The notes under the pieces are model-generated. The model saw only the letters and a list, made by a program, of their open reading frames with translations, was not told the DNA's origin and searched no databases. The translations under genes were made by a program, and so were the position numbers. Below, piece after piece: positions 7,058 through 55,099 of a stretch of 64,000 nt of DNA (positions are counted from its first letter, which is position 1; each line of letters starts with the position of its first letter). The stretch is from positions 62,372,001 through 62,436,000 of the forward strand of contig OX597824.1 of NCBI GenBank assembly GCA_951406725.2, in the 5' to 3' direction. The DNA is from Octopus vulgaris (taxonomy: Eukaryota).

Positions 7058-8026
<969 letters not shown>

Positions 8027-8028
<2 letters not shown>

Positions 8029-8152
8029 TGGCAATAATATTAACACCAATCATAACAATAAAAACTCCGTCTTAGTCTCGGAGGTAAACCCTAACAGATT
8101 AAAGTTCTTATCCAGCAATTCCAAAATTAGACATTTCATTTACCAATGCAAA
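8027..8152 (+). pseudogene. Short fragment of a Naiad-type PLE ORF (linker and start of GIY-YIG)
   Basis: Translates to NKNSVLVSEVNPNRLKFLSSNSKIRHFIYQCK, 24/32 identical to NKNAVLISEANPNRIRFLSSNSKIRNAIYQCR in ORF 35568-36257. Confidence 0.9.
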
Positions 8153-8854
8153 TATCTGCCTTAAAATTTTCAAGACCATCGTATTCGCGCCAACTTATCA
8201 GCAGTAAATATAAACTGCCGATTCAATCTCAGAATTAGTCAGAAAATCATCAATTAATCAATTTAGGGTAGCAAAAAATTCAATAGAAATTTATCGCTAC
8301 CAGCGGTCTAGTGGGAAAGAGAAAATAGTCAAAGACTAAATATATAAAATTTAACAATTCAGGAATGGCCTTAATAGGCCATTCGTCCACTAGAAAGAGC
8401 AGCCAGGACTCAAACCGCTAAGTAGTAGTAATTCAGAAATTAGGTGAAAATTTAAAAACGTTTACCCTAGTTCATCTTTAGACGATGCATCGTTTCAGTG
8501 TTTTTAATGGTAAACCAGCTTAATTATATTTACTGCTGATAAGTTGGCGCGAATACGATGGTCTTGAAAATTTTAAGGCAGATATTCCGAGGGCATTGAT
8601 ACAGACGCCTCGTGTATATCCGTCTCTCTTGGTTTCTTTACTGATGAAGTGTAACCTATGGTAGATTGACTTAATTTAATTTAATTAAGCTGGTTTACCA
8701 TTAAAAACACTGAAACGATGTATCGTCTAAAGATGAATTAGGGTAAACGTTTTTAAATTTTCACCTAATTTCTGAATTACTACTACTGAGCGGTTTGAGT
8801 CCTGGCTGCTCTTTCTAGTGGACGAATGGCTTATTAAGGCCATTCCTCAATTGT

Positions 8855-8858
<4 letters not shown>
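8153..8858 (+). mobile_element. HHR-containing non-coding unit with a 5' inversion, homologous to the 485-bp tandem repeat
   Basis: 8153-8211 is the inverse of 8524-8585; ~8350-8525 is the inverse of ~8683-8858; clear similarity to 53446-53930. Confidence 0.85.
8635..8733 (+). ncRNA. Type I hammerhead ribozyme with extended stem II
   Basis: tcttta-CTGATGA-agtgt...acact-GAAA-cgatgtatcg-TC-taaaga; the stem II interior forms a long hairpin. Confidence 0.9.
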
Positions 8859-8908
<50 letters not shown>

Positions 8909-8910
8909 TA

Positions 8911-9287
8911 TATAAACGGCAGTTTATCTGTGTGTGTTTCTGTGTGTCTGTTTGGTTGTACCCTCACTCTGACCACGGCTTTCAACCGATTCTGATGAAA
9001 CTTGACACACACATAGCCCAATGTCATAATTCAAAACTAACGCAGCGAAAATTTTGAAAAGTTCCCCCAGTTCTGAAAAAGATCGATAAATTCGACATGG
9101 GGTCGACAATCAGAAACACAAACCACAGATGGTCTAGGGGACGCAACTCGACCTTTTTAACTATCAAAAAAAATTTTACCATAATTTTTTTTCCCATTTT
9201 TGGGCTATTTTTTTGGCTATAACTCTCCAAAAATGCTTTATAGTTATTTCCCTTACAAACCCGAGCAACGCCGGGCGATACTGCTAG
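8911..9287 (+). mobile_element. Non-autonomous Helitron-like element
   Basis: 3' hairpin cccgagcaacgccggg followed 8 nt later by CTAG|T; inserted in (TA)n. Confidence 0.65.
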
Positions 9288-9964
9288 TATATATATATAT
9301 AAATATTAATTACATGTATGTGTGTAAATGTTTATTGAATAGAACATTGGAGAAAGAAGAAAGGAAGTAGAAGAAAAGGATGAAAGTAAAGGGTACAAAA
9401 GGATGTTCTATTTCGACGAACGTTTTCCATTGTTAAAATTTCAGTTGAAGCTGAATTTTTTGAAAAGCAAAGATGAAGAGAGTTTCAATGCGGGGAAAAT
9501 TCAGTTATTGCTAAGACCTGTCAGAAAAAGAGAAACAAACCCAAATATAATGAAATTGTGAAGAAAAGAAAAATACAATTTTAGAGAGAAACCCTAAAAT
9601 ATATGAAGCATTGTAAGCGTATGACGAAAACTACTAGAGGTTTTATCGAGGAAGAAAATTTGTTGAACTAATAGATATATTAATAATAGTAACATGATAA
9701 TATTGACAACATAATTAGAGAAAGTGATTGAGCGTTTACATAAGTATAACATGCTACAATATGTAATTGAAAATGTACCCGACGCAATTAAAAATGAGTT
9801 TTTGTTAAAATGTAAGATCTGGATAAAATAGGATTAAGCACTAATACAATATCATGGATAAAAAAGAACTGTTGAATATTTATTAAATTTACAACATGTA
9901 ATCTAATTTATAAATAGCTGTATTAAAGTTATAAATAATTTAGAACAAAATTACGGTTTCAATT

Positions 9965-11793: not shown

Positions 11794-12473
11794 TTGCATT
11801 TCGGGAAAGGAAAAGTTTTTTCGGAATAAAAATTTAGCAATTAAGGACAACTACTTAATAAGGAAAACTTAACAAGAAATTGTCAGGTAGATAATTATTT
11901 TCGAAATTTTTTCTCTTATGAGGTTTTCACACTATCTACCTGACAATTTCTTGTTAAGTTTTCCTTATTAAGTAGTTGTCCTTAATTGCTAAATTTTTAT
12001 TCCGAAAAAACTTTTCCTTTCCCGAAATGCAATTCGTAAAAGTCGGCCATTTACCGGATGTAATATATGTAAACTCACCCATGTGCTTCGTTGATGTTGA
12101 TCAGTTAGCTGATCGGCTTAAGCGAGGGAGGGTCGTTTATGTATGATACATCCAGGCCTGCTGATGAATACGTAAGTATGAAATCACTGTGATACAGGTC
12201 TATATTTTTTAAATGTCTTACTTTGAAAAATTGCATTCGGTGGGATTAGTAATATTTTTGGTAGAAATGACTAATTGTCCCTCTTAGCGTGTGGCATGTA
12301 TGTATAATGCTCTCTGGCATGTATGTATAATGCCCTCTATATATAAATTAATTATGTTCAATAAGAAATAATTATTTTCGAAATTTTTTCTCTTATGAGG
12401 TTTTCACGCTATCTACCTGACAATTTCTTGTTAAGTATTCCTTATTAAGTAGTTGTCCTTAATTGCTAAATTT
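11791..12473 (+). mobile_element. Terminally redundant 477-nt HHR unit with a 5' inversion
   Basis: 11891-11995 is repeated at 12368-12473 (period 477); 11791-11893 is the inverse of 11933-12035; ends in (TA)n. Confidence 0.85.
12155..12200 (+). ncRNA. Compact type I hammerhead ribozyme
   Basis: ggcctg-CTGATGA-atac(gtaa)gtat-GAAA-tca(ctg)tga-TA-caggtc. Confidence 0.92.
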
Positions 12474-12491
12474 CTATATATATATATATTT

Positions 12492-34580: not shown

Positions 34581-34864
34581 GCTATTGATAATCTGTAGAT
34601 CATCAGTTCCTCTTTTACTCAAAATCCCTGCACTACCTCTAGCCTGATTCTTCGTGGGAAGATTGATGGTAAGATAGGATAGGAATATCTATGTAACAAG
34701 GATCAAGACATTCATAAAAGGAAATCAATAAAATGAAGATTATCACTCGCCTAATATTGGTGACTGATATGATATACATTACATACGTACATATATATGT
34801 ATATATATATTTAGTGAAGGGAAGAAATAGAGCTGAACGAAGATGCTACAGAATTCCTTTTATT

Positions 34865-34950
34865 ATTTTCTACACATGTTTCAAAGGCCGCAAATTTCCA
34901 AATTCGGATTGAATAAGGAGACCATTTTGCAGCATTCTCTTCAGGAAAAT
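34865..34950 (-). ncRNA. Type I HHR with long stem II in the 3' pLTR
   Basis: attttc-CTGAAGA-gaat-gctgcaaa...tttgcggc-cttt-GAAAC-atgt-GTA-gaaaat. Confidence 0.8.
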
Positions 34951-35567
34951 CCAGGAATTTAAAAATCCAAAACAAATGCGCAGCAAGGTATTCGAACAAA
35001 ACGCTCCTTAGGAGCCCATGAAAAAGCACAAAACTGTCTCTCAATGTGCGTTGACGTCGGGGGGGGGGAGGCCGACGAAAAAGTCCGTTGGAATAAATCA
35101 AGGTCAGACTGTGGTCAACCCTGGTAGTGGAAGAAATACTGAAAACCAAAGGGTGTGAATATATTCTGTATAACTAAAGTTAATGCTCGGATTGTTTTAA
35201 GAATTAAGGCTATCTTATATAGGTGTGGGACCCTACCTACATGTATGTGTGTGCGCGCCTGTGTATGTGTAGGAGTCTGTCAGGCAGCGAGTAGAGGGAA
35301 AGAGAACTGCTGATTTTGTTGGTCAGGCAGCTGATAGGAGCCCGTGTCTGTGTGTCCGTCTGTGGTCAGCTTGTAAACAGATGACTTGTCAAATCAAGGA
35401 GAATATAATTCCTGATATTGCTTCTAAAAAAGTAGCAGACCATTCGCTAGAGGGGAGTAATTTCCCCTTGTAAAATTAATTCAAAGATTTTTTCAAAAAT
35501 TTTCCCAAAAATTCTTTTAAATATGTTTTCCTCTCTTAGGACCTCAAGGGGTTAATTATCTTAGGTT

Positions 35568-37380
35568 TCAATTGTATGCAAGAAATGTGTGTCGGCGCCA
35601 ATGGGGACATCTGAAAGAATTTTGCAAAATCCCGTTAACTAGGTGCCCTCGGGCGAATAAAATGTGAAAAAGCTCAGAGTTGCAGAGATTACAAATTCTT
35701 TTGCCTCTATAAAACGGTAGAGACACCGATAAAATCGACCATTCCAGTCTAAATGCTGAATTCGCGTTCTTCAAACGCCAGATCAATATACTAAGTCCTG
35801 TCGCGTGATATTTATTAAAATCGCGAAATGTTGTGAAGTGGTTCGATATTCTCACGGCCAATTTTGATGATGAAGCTCCTATATACGAGTAGACATCTGA
35901 TTCAGTGTAAATTCTGCATTGGTAAATGGCATTTCTAATCTTGGAATTACTAGATAAGAACCTTATTCTATTGGGATTAGCTTCCGATATTAATACGGCG
36001 TTCTTATTACTATAATGATTGTGAGAACTGCGGCTGTCTTCGACATTATACACCCCATTATCAATACTATTTAATGGAATAACACCTGTATATTCCCTGT
36101 CACTGAGATCGCTGTGATCGCTAATGTCCGTGATCCTACTGTGGTCTAAATCGCTGCTAAAGGTGTTATTAGGACTCTCTACATTAATGACTCGGACAGT
36201 GCTCTCATTCCTATTACTATTACTAACGTTAGTGTCGTCAACATTGCTCCTATCCATATTCCTATTATTAACTCCATGGCTAGTATGGAGATTGCTAATC
36301 TCTGTGCCGGTTCTATTATCACTATTACTATTATTATTACTGTTCGTTATTCTTGCATTATACGGAGCTGCGTCTCCGGACGAGGGTCATAGGGTCTTAT
36401 TTAGCAGCTTATTGTTATGGGAGGAAATTATCTGGGAGAGATTTTTTGTGTTTGAGAAGGCTATCCTAACTTTGTGTGAGTTAACAGTAGCGTAATATCT
36501 GGAATTTCTGGGAAAATTACTGGCAATGGCTTGGCGAAACTGCAGGGGTAGATTAGATCTTATTTGTTTACCAAAGGGAATTACAAACCAAATGTATTTA
36601 TTCCTGTTTTGTAATGGGTCGGGGAGTCAACTCTGACATTAAGGTGGGTATTTCTAGGCTGAATAATAGGTTTTGGCTTACTATGGCCTCCCCTGGACCG
36701 CAAATTATTTATGTTACCTAAATTTATTCTAGATGTACCTGTTCCGACATTCCTCGGGCTATCATCACTACTTAAATTATTTATGTTATTGTAGCCGGCC
36801 CTATCCCAATGACAGAATGCTGGCATCGGAAGGGCAGGATCTATATATACTACCTTCTCCCTATAACCGGCTTTAGACAGGGCGGCATTATAAAATTCCT
36901 CTTTTGCCTAAAAATGTCGACACTAGCAGACAAAATGGTCAATCTTTGAGAAATATTTTTAACCAAATTGTCTGTTATAGTTTTAGCGTGATTCGAGAAG
37001 ACACTGACATACTTTAAGTTAGTGGAAGGCTTGTGGTAAGGGCAGTAAGAATCGCTATGGAGGTTTAGTGAAACATCTAAGAAATTAGCCTTAGTTAGTT
37101 CGTTATCAAAAACTATACTCATGCCCATCCTATTAAAGAACCTAGCTAACCTGTTTTTAGTTTTCTGAATGATTCTGTTCGTGGTGTTTTGAAGGTAAAA
37201 CAGACAATCGTCACGATATAGGCCGCCCCCGATTTCCGGGAACTGGTCGGATAATTCGTAGAGAATATATATTCCGACCAAGTCGGCAATCTGCGCGCTA
37301 TCTGAACTACCCATAGGCACATCGAACTTGTTGGGGGTATCTTTACGAACCCACAACTTATTACCAAACTTTATAAAAGA
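35568..37380 (-). pseudogene. Naiad RT (C-terminal half), thumb, N/S-rich linker and GIY-YIG endonuclease
   Basis: WVRKD..FDVPMGSSDSAQIADLVG, GLYRDDCL, NFLDVSLNL..YCPYHKP, YIWFVIPFG, AIYQC..YIGAS, LIWRLK, CNLC..E, RCPH; two frameshifts and one in-frame TGA. Confidence 0.9.
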
Positions 37381-37681
37381 TGCACACACATACATGTAGG
37401 TAGGGTCCCACACCTATATAAGATAGCCTTAATTCTTAAAACAATCCGAACATTAACTTTAGTTATACAGAATATATTCACACCCTTTGGTTTTCAGTAT
37501 TTCTTCCACTACCAGGGTTGACCACAGTCTGACCTTGATTTATTCCAACGGACTTTTTCGTCGGCCTCCCCCCGACGTCAACGCACATTGAGAGACAGTT
37601 TTGTGCTTTTTCATGGGCTCCTAAGGAGCGTTTTGTTCGAATACCTTGCTGCGCATTTGTTTTGGATTTTTAAATTCCTGG

Positions 37682-37767
37682 ATTTTCCTGAAGAGAATGC
37701 TGCAAAATGGTCTCCTTATTCAATCCGAATTTGGAAATTTGCGGCCTTTGAAACATGTGTAGAAAAT
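37682..37767 (+). ncRNA. Type I HHR in the inverted pLTR
   Basis: Inverse copy of 34865-34950. Confidence 0.8.
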
Positions 37768-37977
37768 AATAAAAGGAATTCTGTAGCATCTTCGTTCAGC
37801 TCCATTTCTTCCCTTCACTAAATATATCAAACTTCAATTATCCGCGCTAAGGCACGGTTGCGACACCCCAAGGTCGTAACTTCAACCGTGTTTTTTCTGT
37901 TGTGATTTTTGCTACCCAGGTATCGGTTAAATTTTGAATAATCCTTAACAAGATAATTCATTTGTCCATTTCAATAA

Positions 37978-53394: not shown

Positions 53395-53450
<56 letters not shown>

Positions 53451-53568
53451 CAATTAAGGAACGGCCATAATAGGCCATTCACCCACTAGAAATAACAGCC
53501 AAAGCTTCTACCGCAAATAAAGATCAATTCCGTAAACAGGAGAAAATTAAAAAAACATTTACCCTGTA

Positions 53569-53675
53569 ATTTCTTGTACGGTATACCGTTTCATCTGCTG
53601 TTTAATGGTAAACTAACCTGATTAAATTAAATCAAGCCAATCTTCCATAAGCCCTCAGATTCTTCAGCAAGAAAT
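53569..53675 (-). ncRNA. Type I HHR with extended stem II, unit 1
   Basis: Minus strand: atttcttg-CTGAAGA-atctg...cagat-GAAA-cggtataccg-TA-caagaaat. Confidence 0.92.
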
Positions 53676-54053
53676 AGCTCAAGTCGGAACAGATATTTAC
53701 ACGAGGCATACCCAATCCTGCCAAGGCAATATCTGACCTAAAATTTTCAAATCGTCGCACTCGCGCCAAATTTATCGGCAGCAAATAAATCGTCGATTCC
53801 ATTACGGAATTAACCAAAAAATTCATAATTAATCAATATAGGGTGGCAAGGAAAATTTTGTAGAATTTTTTTGCCACCAGCGGCCCAGTGGGAAAAAATT
53901 AAATAGTCATAGACCATTTTTAAGTTCAACATTAACAATTAAGGAACGGCCATAATAGGCCATTCACCCACTAGAAATAACAGCCAAAGCTTCTACCGCA
54001 AATAAAGATCAATTCCGTAAACAGGAGAAAATTAAAAAAACATTTACCCTGTA

Positions 54054-54160
54054 ATTTCTTGTACGGTATACCGTTTCATCTGCTGTTTAATGGTAAACTA
54101 ACCTGATTAAATTAAATCAAGCCAATCTTCCATAAGCCCTCAGATTCTTCAGCAAGAAAT
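54054..54160 (-). ncRNA. Type I HHR, unit 2
   Basis: Copy of 53569-53675 offset by 485. Confidence 0.92.
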
Positions 54161-54538
54161 AGCTCAAGTCGGAACAGATATTTACACGAGGCATACCCAA
54201 TCCTGCCAAGGCAATATCTGACCTAAAATTTTCAAATCGTCGCACTCGCGCCAAATTTATCGGCAGCAAATAAATCGTCGATTCCATTACGGAATTAACC
54301 AAAAAATTCATAATTAATCAATATAGGGTGGCAAGGAAAATTTTGTAGAATTTTTTTGCCACCAGCGGCCCAGTGGGAAAAAATTAAATAGTCATAGACC
54401 ATTTTTAAGTTCAACATTAACAATTAAGGAACGGCCATAATAGGCCATTCACCCACTAGAAATAACAGCCAAAGCTTCTACCGCAAATAAAGATCAATTC
54501 CGTAAACAGGAGAAAATTAAAAAAACATTTACCCTGTA

Positions 54539-54645
54539 ATTTCTTGTACGGTATACCGTTTCATCTGCTGTTTAATGGTAAACTAACCTGATTAAATTAA
54601 ATCAAGCCAATCTTCCATAAGCCCTCAGATTCTTCAGCAAGAAAT
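54539..54645 (-). ncRNA. Type I HHR, unit 3
   Basis: Copy of 53569-53675 offset by 970. Confidence 0.92.
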
Positions 54646-55099
54646 AGCTCAAGTCGGAACAGATATTTACACGAGGCATACCCAATCCTGCCAAGGCAAT
54701 ATCTGACCTAAAATTTTCAAATCGTCGCACTCGCGCCAAATTTATCGGCAGCAAATAAATCGTCGATTCCATTACGGAATTAACCAAAAAATTCATAATT
54801 AATCAATATAGGGTGGCAAGGAAAATTTTGTAGAATTTTTTTGCCACCAGCGGCCCAGTGGGAAAAAATTAAATAGTCATAGACCATTTTTAAGTTCAAC
54901 ATTAACAATTAAGGAACGGCCATAATAGGCCATTCACCCACTAGAAATAACAGCCAAAGCTTCTACCGCAAATAAAGATCAATTCCGTAAACAGGAGAAA
55001 ATTAAAAAATGTATGTATGTATGTATATATATGTGTATACACACAGATACATACATATTTATTTGTATATCTTGCATTCCTTTCTCTTTTATCGTCTAC

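What the first reader, a model, noticed from the sequence alone, without database searches (positions are those of the whole stretch)
8153..8858. Diverged sister of the 485-nt unit shows stem covariation and circular permutation
Seen: all three HHR stems differ in sequence from the array yet still pair (stem I tcttta/taaaga vs atttcttg/caagaaat; stem II base agtgt/acact vs atctg/cagat; stem III cgatgYatcg vs cggtataccg), while the cores are kept. The inverted 5' part, read on the minus strand, runs past the end of the sense part (8858) and re-enters its start (ttatatttactg, 8524). It therefore crosses a unit-to-unit junction of a ~470-nt repeat. Inference: the ribozyme is under selection and the template was circular or tandem.
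Basis: partly seen in the sequence, partly recalled or inferred. Interest (0 to 1): 0.82.

Follow-up and report, generated by a model that had tools for sequence, protein, structure and literature searches.

The report
Retrozyme copied from both ends
This is a broken copy of a small ribozyme-carrying repeat that has spread through an animal genome, and its relatives' end points suggest that one RNA, likely a circle, is copied from two fixed start sites at once, probably by a Penelope-type transposon enzyme.

Summary
8524-8858(+) and 8530-8151(-) are head-to-head arms of a 470-nt type I hammerhead repeat, 72% identical to the 485-nt array. It is a truncated non-LTR retrozyme copy from a large family (3,342 genomic hits to one motif). 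The 8858-to-8524 'junction' is not the unit boundary; the cleavage site (8727/8728) is, and both arms cross it. Stems stay paired between lineages, but there are few independent changes, and some lineages carry U4C or a mismatched first stem II pair. The stronger result is in the relatives. Arm ends sit in (AT)n at two sites, about 130 (P1) and 230 nt (P2) past the cleavage site. Of 85 head-to-head copies, 75 have one arm at each site and none has both at the same site. Locus-private mutations are shared across both arms (35; 0 one-arm-only). Local Penelope-like elements follow the same two-end rule. Likely mechanism: a Penelope-type RT/endonuclease primes both target ends on one circular RNA and makes concatemers at insertion. 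This locus is an exception: its left arm ends on a 126-bp Penelope ORF fragment. The driver element, cleavage and circles are not shown.

The parts
7965..8026 (.). (AT)31 microsatellite, left flank
8027..8152 (+). Fragment of a Penelope-like (PLE) ORF: N-rich linker up to the start of the GIY-YIG endonuclease; 95-97% identical to a PLE family elsewhere in the genome; 2-nt exact overlap with the retrozyme arm; the junction was found only here
   Evidence: (1 of 40 scored hits spans it)
8151..8530 (-). Inverted retrozyme arm, 0.81 unit: unit positions 421-470 then 1-329. Carries the 3' half of the hammerhead (cleavage site 8481/8480) and reads through both P1 (about 8350) and P2 (about 8253)
8214..8349 (-). 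About 135 nt of the unit missing from the sense arm; holds the P2 hairpin (from 8301) and the P2 site
8524..8530 (.). Inversion centre; the two arms overlap by 7 nt (6 of 7 matching)
8524..8858 (+). Sense retrozyme arm, about 0.7 unit: unit positions 267-470 then 1 to about 130; ends at site P1
8635..8733 (+). Type I hammerhead ribozyme with a long stem II and a self-complementary stem III; predicted cleavage 8727/8728
8824..8858 (+). P1 module: conserved GC-rich hairpin (8824-8845) followed by an AU-rich stretch at which arms end
8858..8914 (.). (AT)n microsatellite, right flank
53446..55009 (-). Young sister array, 3.22 identical 485-nt units; 3' end at P1 in (AT)n, 5' end at unit position 23

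Best explanation
This is a truncated, head-to-head copy of a hammerhead-containing tandem repeat of the non-LTR retrozyme kind, likely inserted when a Penelope-type RT/GIY-YIG enzyme primed both ends of a cut (AT)n target on one, probably circular, RNA. SHOWN: the unit, the hammerhead motif, the subfamilies, (AT)n flanks, two fixed arm ends used one per arm, variable inner ends, concatemers in both arms, private variants shared across arms, and the same end rule in local PLEs. INFERRED: (1) tandem transcripts self-cleave, probably as dimeric hammerheads, and are ligated to circles; (2) the PLE protein, perhaps as a dimer, cuts both strands of (AT)n; (3) one 3' end starts cDNA at P1 and the other at P2, each just 3' of a conserved hairpin; (4) each RT runs round the circle for a variable distance; (5) the two cDNA 3' ends are joined by short overlap or filler, giving a head-to-head centre. 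At this locus the left end is atypical: it was primed by, or later deleted into, a neighbouring PLE fragment.
For: End rule: 75 of 85 head-to-head elements are P1+P2, 0 are P1+P1, 0 are P2+P2, and 10 have at least one end elsewhere. This includes 21 of 26 in a chromosome-order sample and 22 of 23 in a set whose outcome was predicted in writing beforehand. 150 of 159 ends at P1 or P2 abut (AT)n. One template: among private substitutions at positions covered by both arms, 35 are shared across arms, 0 are multi-copy in one arm only and 110 are singletons; in the T lineage the counts are 9, 1 and 25. Where three or more copies in one element cover the site, 14 are in all copies and 3 in a subset, and 6 and 1 in the T lineage. 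Young units are 100% identical across many contigs. PLE likeness: an intact 727-aa PLE family (7 ORFs compared, 99.2-100% identical) also ends in (AT)n at two sites 70 nt apart, one per arm in 6 of 6 inverted copies with both ends in view. The family that gave the fragment does the same with ends about 156 nt apart in 5 copies. Literature: a PLE protein cuts and extends both strands and starts RT at two internal sites whose spacer is the genomic 'tail' (PMC11167929, parts 1-2 of 4 read); the tail is often at only one end of inverted pLTRs (PMC8557442, PMC3846280, passages); circles as templates for tandem cDNA were proposed (PMC7229834, PMC4209133, passages).
Against: No PLE with a clearly homologous pLTR was found among the PLE loci compared. 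One gapped match of the B/Y lineage to the 727-aa PLE scored z 5.6-8.2 under one scoring and 1.6-7.3 under three others, was absent for the sister lineage and does not align hammerhead with hammerhead. Cleavage and circles were not observed. An all-copy variant could also come from a linear transcript of an unsampled uniform source array. Five variants sit in a subset of copies across arms at element level or in one arm. Inner ends are enriched in the first 15 nt after the cleavage site (17 of 202, p 2e-4, post hoc), which hints at some linear, cleaved templates or at pausing at a stem. Frangieh et al. saw no strand difference in start site and no need for cleavage in vitro. Whole-unit structure conservation was mixed: 6 of 11 lineage comparisons beat the whole-sequence null and 7 of 11 the stem-only null at p<0.05, and double changes were significant in 1 of 11. 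The first sister loci were chosen by similarity to an arm ending at P1, which biases that subset.
Confidence: 0.62

Rival explanations
1. Same PLE-driven two-site priming, but on a linear, uncleaved multimeric transcript of a uniform source array; the hammerhead matters little for insertion.
For: Cleavage was dispensable for PAc priming in vitro (PMC11167929). Young arrays are 99-100% uniform. Lineages with U4C (17 of 317 copies, 11 loci) or an A.A first stem II pair (83 of 317, 24 loci) spread. Four cross-arm variants are in only a subset of an element's copies.
Against: 20 variants are in every one of three or more copies across both arms, which needs a one-unit bottleneck somewhere. The free core positions N7 (all four bases) and H17 (C or A) change while stems I and III stay paired.
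Confidence: 0.22
2. Monomers insert and arrays grow later by unequal crossover or gene conversion (satellite model, bioRxiv 10.64898/2026.07.22.740005).
For: One one-arm variant in 2 of 10 copies (L199); long uniform arrays exist.
Against: 1 one-arm multi-copy variant against 44 cross-arm ones. 135 singletons remain unconverted. The youngest family already has arms of 8-10 units in both orientations (those loci were picked as best full-unit hits).
Confidence: 0.05
3. The inversion arises by fold-back self-priming on an antisense template, as proposed for PLE head-to-head repeats (PMC3846280, passage).
For: A few centres have nearly equal unit positions on both sides (L014, L127, L136, L097).
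Against: Most centres join unrelated unit positions with overlaps of 1-12 nt, blunt joins or short fillers. The inverted arm here holds 135 nt that the other arm lacks. Fold-back does not explain why the two outer ends use different fixed sites.
Confidence: 0.06
4. A LINE mobilises it by L1-type twin priming.
For: 5' inversions joined by microhomology are known for L1 (recalled).
Against: There is no poly(A). Both outer ends are fixed internal sites, whereas in L1 the second site varies (recalled). Local PLEs share the target and the end rule.
Confidence: 0.05

Closest known systems
Metazoan non-LTR retrozymes (Cervera and de la Pena 2020, PMC7229834; passages read)
   Same: Non-coding, low-GC tandem repeats with one type I hammerhead per unit, from partial monomers to multimers, dispersed in the genome, with PLEs in the same genome.
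   Different: Units of 468-495 nt are longer than the reported 170-400 nt RNAs. Stem II is about 60 nt long. The search terms 'inverted', 'microsatellite' and 'rolling' had 0 hits in that paper's main text; its supplements were not read. Circles and cleavage are untested here.
Penelope-like elements: inverted pLTRs with a tail, and two RT start sites (PMC11167929 parts 1-2; PMC8557442 and PMC3846280 passages)
   Same: An inverted 5'-truncated copy next to the sense copy, a tail on one end only, AT-rich or (TA)n targets, a hammerhead upstream of the start sites.
   Different: No ORF. The tail is about 100 nt, not 30-40 nt. Both arms can be concatemers. One site per arm is near absolute here, while PAc in vitro showed no strand difference.
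Retrozymes as non-autonomous PLE derivatives (bioRxiv 10.64898/2026.07.22.740005; parts 1-3 of 5 read, abstract to discussion)
   Same: Reaches the PLE link by co-occurrence and pLTR homology in Xenopus.
   Different: It offers no insertion-footprint evidence and invokes later unequal crossover for arrays. Here the footprint shows the link, arrays look made at insertion, and no clearly homologous pLTR was found.
Dimeric hammerheads of newt satellite 2 and repeat-type HHRs (PMC4209133, PMC3088659 passages)
   Same: Self-complementary stem III plus loop.
   Different: Here the stem has 3-4 bp, and one lineage changes both central loop bases (UGCA to UAUA) while staying self-complementary; that is a single event.

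Membership tests
Non-LTR retrozyme | Type I hammerhead motif in each unit | tested here: met
   no Rfam hit at gathering and none among the 150 of 203 E<=5 rows shown, so the call rests on motif and stems
Non-LTR retrozyme | Short tandem units of low GC, dispersed, from partial copies to multimers | tested here: met
   468-495-nt units, many contigs
Non-LTR retrozyme | No coding capacity and no LTR, PBS or PPT | tested here: inconclusive
   No PLE protein match inside units; no LTR pair in the mapped elements; ORFs, PBS and PPT were not scanned for
Non-LTR retrozyme | Self-cleavage of the transcript | not testable with these tools
   needs in vitro transcription
Non-LTR retrozyme | Expressed as linear and circular monomers | tested here: inconclusive
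   only contigs of runs not on record as RNA were available
Non-LTR retrozyme | Target-site duplications | not testable with these tools
   flanks are (AT)n and no empty allele is held
Autonomous Penelope-like element | Single RT plus GIY-YIG ORF | tested here: not met
   only a 126-bp ORF fragment abuts the left arm; it is not part of the unit
PLE-mobilised non-autonomous element | Inverted 5'-truncated copy with a tail at one end (two RT start sites) | tested here: met
   75 of 85, none at the same site
PLE-mobilised non-autonomous element | (TA)n or AT-rich target | tested here: met
   150 of 159 P1/P2 ends
PLE-mobilised non-autonomous element | Sequence homology to the pLTR of an autonomous partner | tested here: inconclusive
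   three PLE pLTRs aligned with shuffles; one weak, scoring-dependent match; the genome's PLE families were not enumerated

The most novel reading that the evidence does not exclude
Penelope-type enzymes carry out programmed twin priming: one RNP holds two hairpin-plus-AU modules of a single circular RNA, gives one to each target strand, and rolls both RTs round the circle. This one mechanism would account for PLE inverted pLTRs, the one-sided tail and retrozyme tandem arrays, and it would be a eukaryotic rolling-circle reverse-transcription pathway that inserts into (AT)n.
Probability: 0.45. Interest if true: 0.8.

Novelty: new member of a known kind. Interest (0 to 1): 0.6.

Why it matters
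The element class is known and this copy is dead. The family, however, gives a countable footprint for two open questions: how non-LTR retrozymes are mobilised, and how PLE head-to-head repeats with a one-sided tail arise. A roughly 480-nt non-coding RNA with two mapped start sites, a 100%-identical young subfamily and an intact, equally young candidate PLE in the same genome make an in vitro test straightforward. It also argues that these arrays are made at insertion and not grown as satellites.

Tried and rejected
Rfam: no hit at gathering; the 150 rows shown of 203 at E<=5 were miRNA, snoRNA and sRNA models, mostly on simple repeats, with no hammerhead; 53 rows were not shown. Expression: no RNA holder listed on record; 14 runs only guessed to be RNA hold 53-86% of the young unit's sampled words, not used as evidence. 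Laying 4 contig sets on 8030-8852 listed no piece bridging the PLE junction and one run laid nothing; this proves nothing, but its loose ends led to lineages T and U. A 7-nt microhomology at the PLE junction, written in my note, was wrong: the exact overlap is 2 nt. The PLE fragment as a marker of the driver was rejected: its family's 3' region has no significant similarity to the unit, the junction was found once, and the fragment looks no younger than the arms (4 of 124 differences against 8 of 691). L017, a retrozyme arm abutting a PLE RT, is an insertion beside a decayed PLE with no retrozyme-like 3' end. Sloppy template jumping at the cleavage site was rejected: no indel there among the family copies in the 341 motif matches, some of which are unrelated noise (the search needed the upstream motif intact). 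Whole-unit covariation on single-sequence folds was mixed, and antisense folds also kept some double changes; RNAalifold gave 7 of 103 pairs changed on both sides. Pfam gave only a sub-threshold GIY-YIG hit for the PLE ORF (E 0.028) and nothing for the fragment. Earlier scan findings: none. Seven literature searches and the passages read showed no report of head-to-head retrozymes or of a one-site-per-arm rule; most subscription papers and all supplements were outside what I saw.

Full report
Observation. The 485-nt array at 53446-55009 holds its sister on the - strand. Self-alignment shows that 8530->8151(-) repeats 8678-8859, goes on for about 135 new nt and re-enters 8524-8586, so the unit is 470 nt. 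Natural tandem copies of 468-474 nt confirm this. Numbered from the predicted cleavage site, the sense arm covers 267-470 and 1 to about 130, and the inverted arm covers 421-470 and 1-329. Both arms therefore cross the real RNA boundary. 8524 is only the inversion centre (7-nt overlap) and 8858 a preferred end.

Family. The genome is 2.8 Gb in 227 contigs. Motif counts: 1,595 for a stem II motif (control 1), 3,342 for the P2 motif (control 0), 218 for lineage T and 9 for lineage U. These count units or fragments, not insertions. There are two main branches about 71-75% identical, S (S1-S3, T, U) and Y/B/C/D, with sublineages at 86-96% and U at about 82-87% to S3. Y units are 100% identical on many contigs. 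The window copy is 98% identical to its closest relatives.

Covariation. On 13 hammerheads and 30 named pairs, 97.7% of cells pair (0 of 500 shuffles reach this; slid controls 25-46%), and 6 pairs change on both sides (65 of 500 shuffles reach this). The sequences fall into few lineages, so these are not probabilities. In 317 hammerheads counted in the mapped loci, five paired stem I types account for 304 and five self-complementary stem III types for 300. N7 takes all four bases and H17 is C or A (the search fixed the other core positions and required H17 to be A, C or U, so it does not test them). Against strict selection: U4C occurs in 17 copies at 11 loci, and the first stem II pair is A.A in 83 and A.C in 12. 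U4C lowers activity in vitro but was tolerated in a viroid (PMC3088659, passage). Outside the ribozyme, conserved hairpins are predicted, but lineage-pair tests were mixed.

End rule. I mapped 80 loci, then 29 and 20 against repeated natural units. Elements cut by a locus edge were left out. Arm 3' ends cluster at P1 (120-147) and P2 (215-245). Head-to-head elements: 45 of 53, 22 of 23 and 8 of 9 are P1+P2; none is P1+P1 or P2+P2; 10 have an end elsewhere, this locus among them. The second set was predicted in a note first. Four apparently single-armed copies hide a short P2 arm. 150 of 159 P1/P2 ends abut (AT)n. Inner ends scatter over the unit, with overlaps of 1-12 nt, blunt joins or short fillers. 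Each site lies in a weakly paired AU-rich stretch just 3' of a conserved hairpin.

One template. Substitutions private to a locus, at positions covered by both arms, were 35 shared across arms, 0 multi-copy in one arm and 110 singletons; in lineage T, 9, 1 and 25. Examples: one variant in 8 of 8 copies (L162) and one in 9 of 9 (L199). This fits copying of one unit, followed by neutral decay. It does not exclude a linear transcript of an unsampled uniform array. The sequence across the cleavage site has no indels. Inner ends are somewhat enriched just after the cleavage site (17 of 202 within 15 nt; post hoc).

PLE link. 8027-8152(+) translates to the linker and first residues of a PLE endonuclease and is 95-97% identical to a family with a long RT-EN frame and its own hammerhead. 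The junction with the retrozyme has a 2-nt exact overlap and was found once among 40 scored hits. Insertion beside an existing PLE remnant, a later deletion and a single chimeric event cannot be told apart; both element types use (AT)n, so being neighbours does not name the driver. That PLE family and an intact, 99%-identical 727-aa family show the same one-end-each rule. The 727-aa family matches the Y lineage in age and target and is the best candidate driver, but sequence kinship is weak and depends on the scoring.

Mechanism and literature. Retrozyme circles as templates for tandem cDNA made by a PLE RT were proposed without direct evidence (PMC7229834, PMC4209133; passages). A 2026 preprint links retrozymes to pLTRs but invokes unequal crossover for arrays. 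A purified PLE protein cuts and extends both strands, starts at two internal sites that delimit the tail and is predicted to be a dimer. The footprint here adds that the two sites are used one per target end on what looks like the same template, in a non-coding element with concatemeric arms. I found no such report in seven searches of the held library; supplements were not read and could bear on this.

Verdict. The copy is an ordinary dead member of a known class (confidence in the class about 0.95). The family-level footprint is new in what I could read and makes the PLE and retrozyme insertion mechanism testable. Cleavage, circularity and the driver remain inferred.

Noticed in passing
window 34790-37975: A 5'-truncated, frameshifted PLE on the - strand with inverted pLTRs, each with a hammerhead motif (core at 34944- and 37688+); the two ends stop at different sites, one with a tail.
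   Followed up: partly
window 11900-12476: Another likely retrozyme family: a clean type I hammerhead motif near 12157-12200(+) in a repeat with a period of about 478 nt that ends in (AT)n; it had no BLAST hit to the units studied.
   Followed up: no
window 8915-9290: A repeat ending in a short GC-rich palindrome and CTAG, like a Helitron-type non-autonomous element (resemblance recalled).
   Followed up: no
L303:2805-4464: A head-to-head tandem repeat with a 564-nt period, a short-stem-III hammerhead motif and (AT)n ends; weak similarity to the P1-P2 region (z 2.5-3.3).
   Followed up: partly
G000, e.g. L292:2203-4383: A very young PLE family with many intact 727-aa frames among 150 scored hits, in partial tandems and inversions, with a minimal hammerhead and a 70-nt tail.
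   Followed up: partly
window 28556(-), 38306(+), 28582(+): Further hammerhead-core-like motifs from a loose scan; stems incomplete or not checked.
   Followed up: no
L162 and window 53446-55009: Two young arms on the same contig have identical extent (unit 23 to 131, 3.22 units); L162 carries a variant in all 8 copies that the window array lacks.
   Followed up: no
runs X16-X19: Two other coded organisms hold words of the young unit, so the family probably extends to related species; pieces of the sister were laid from X16.
   Followed up: partly
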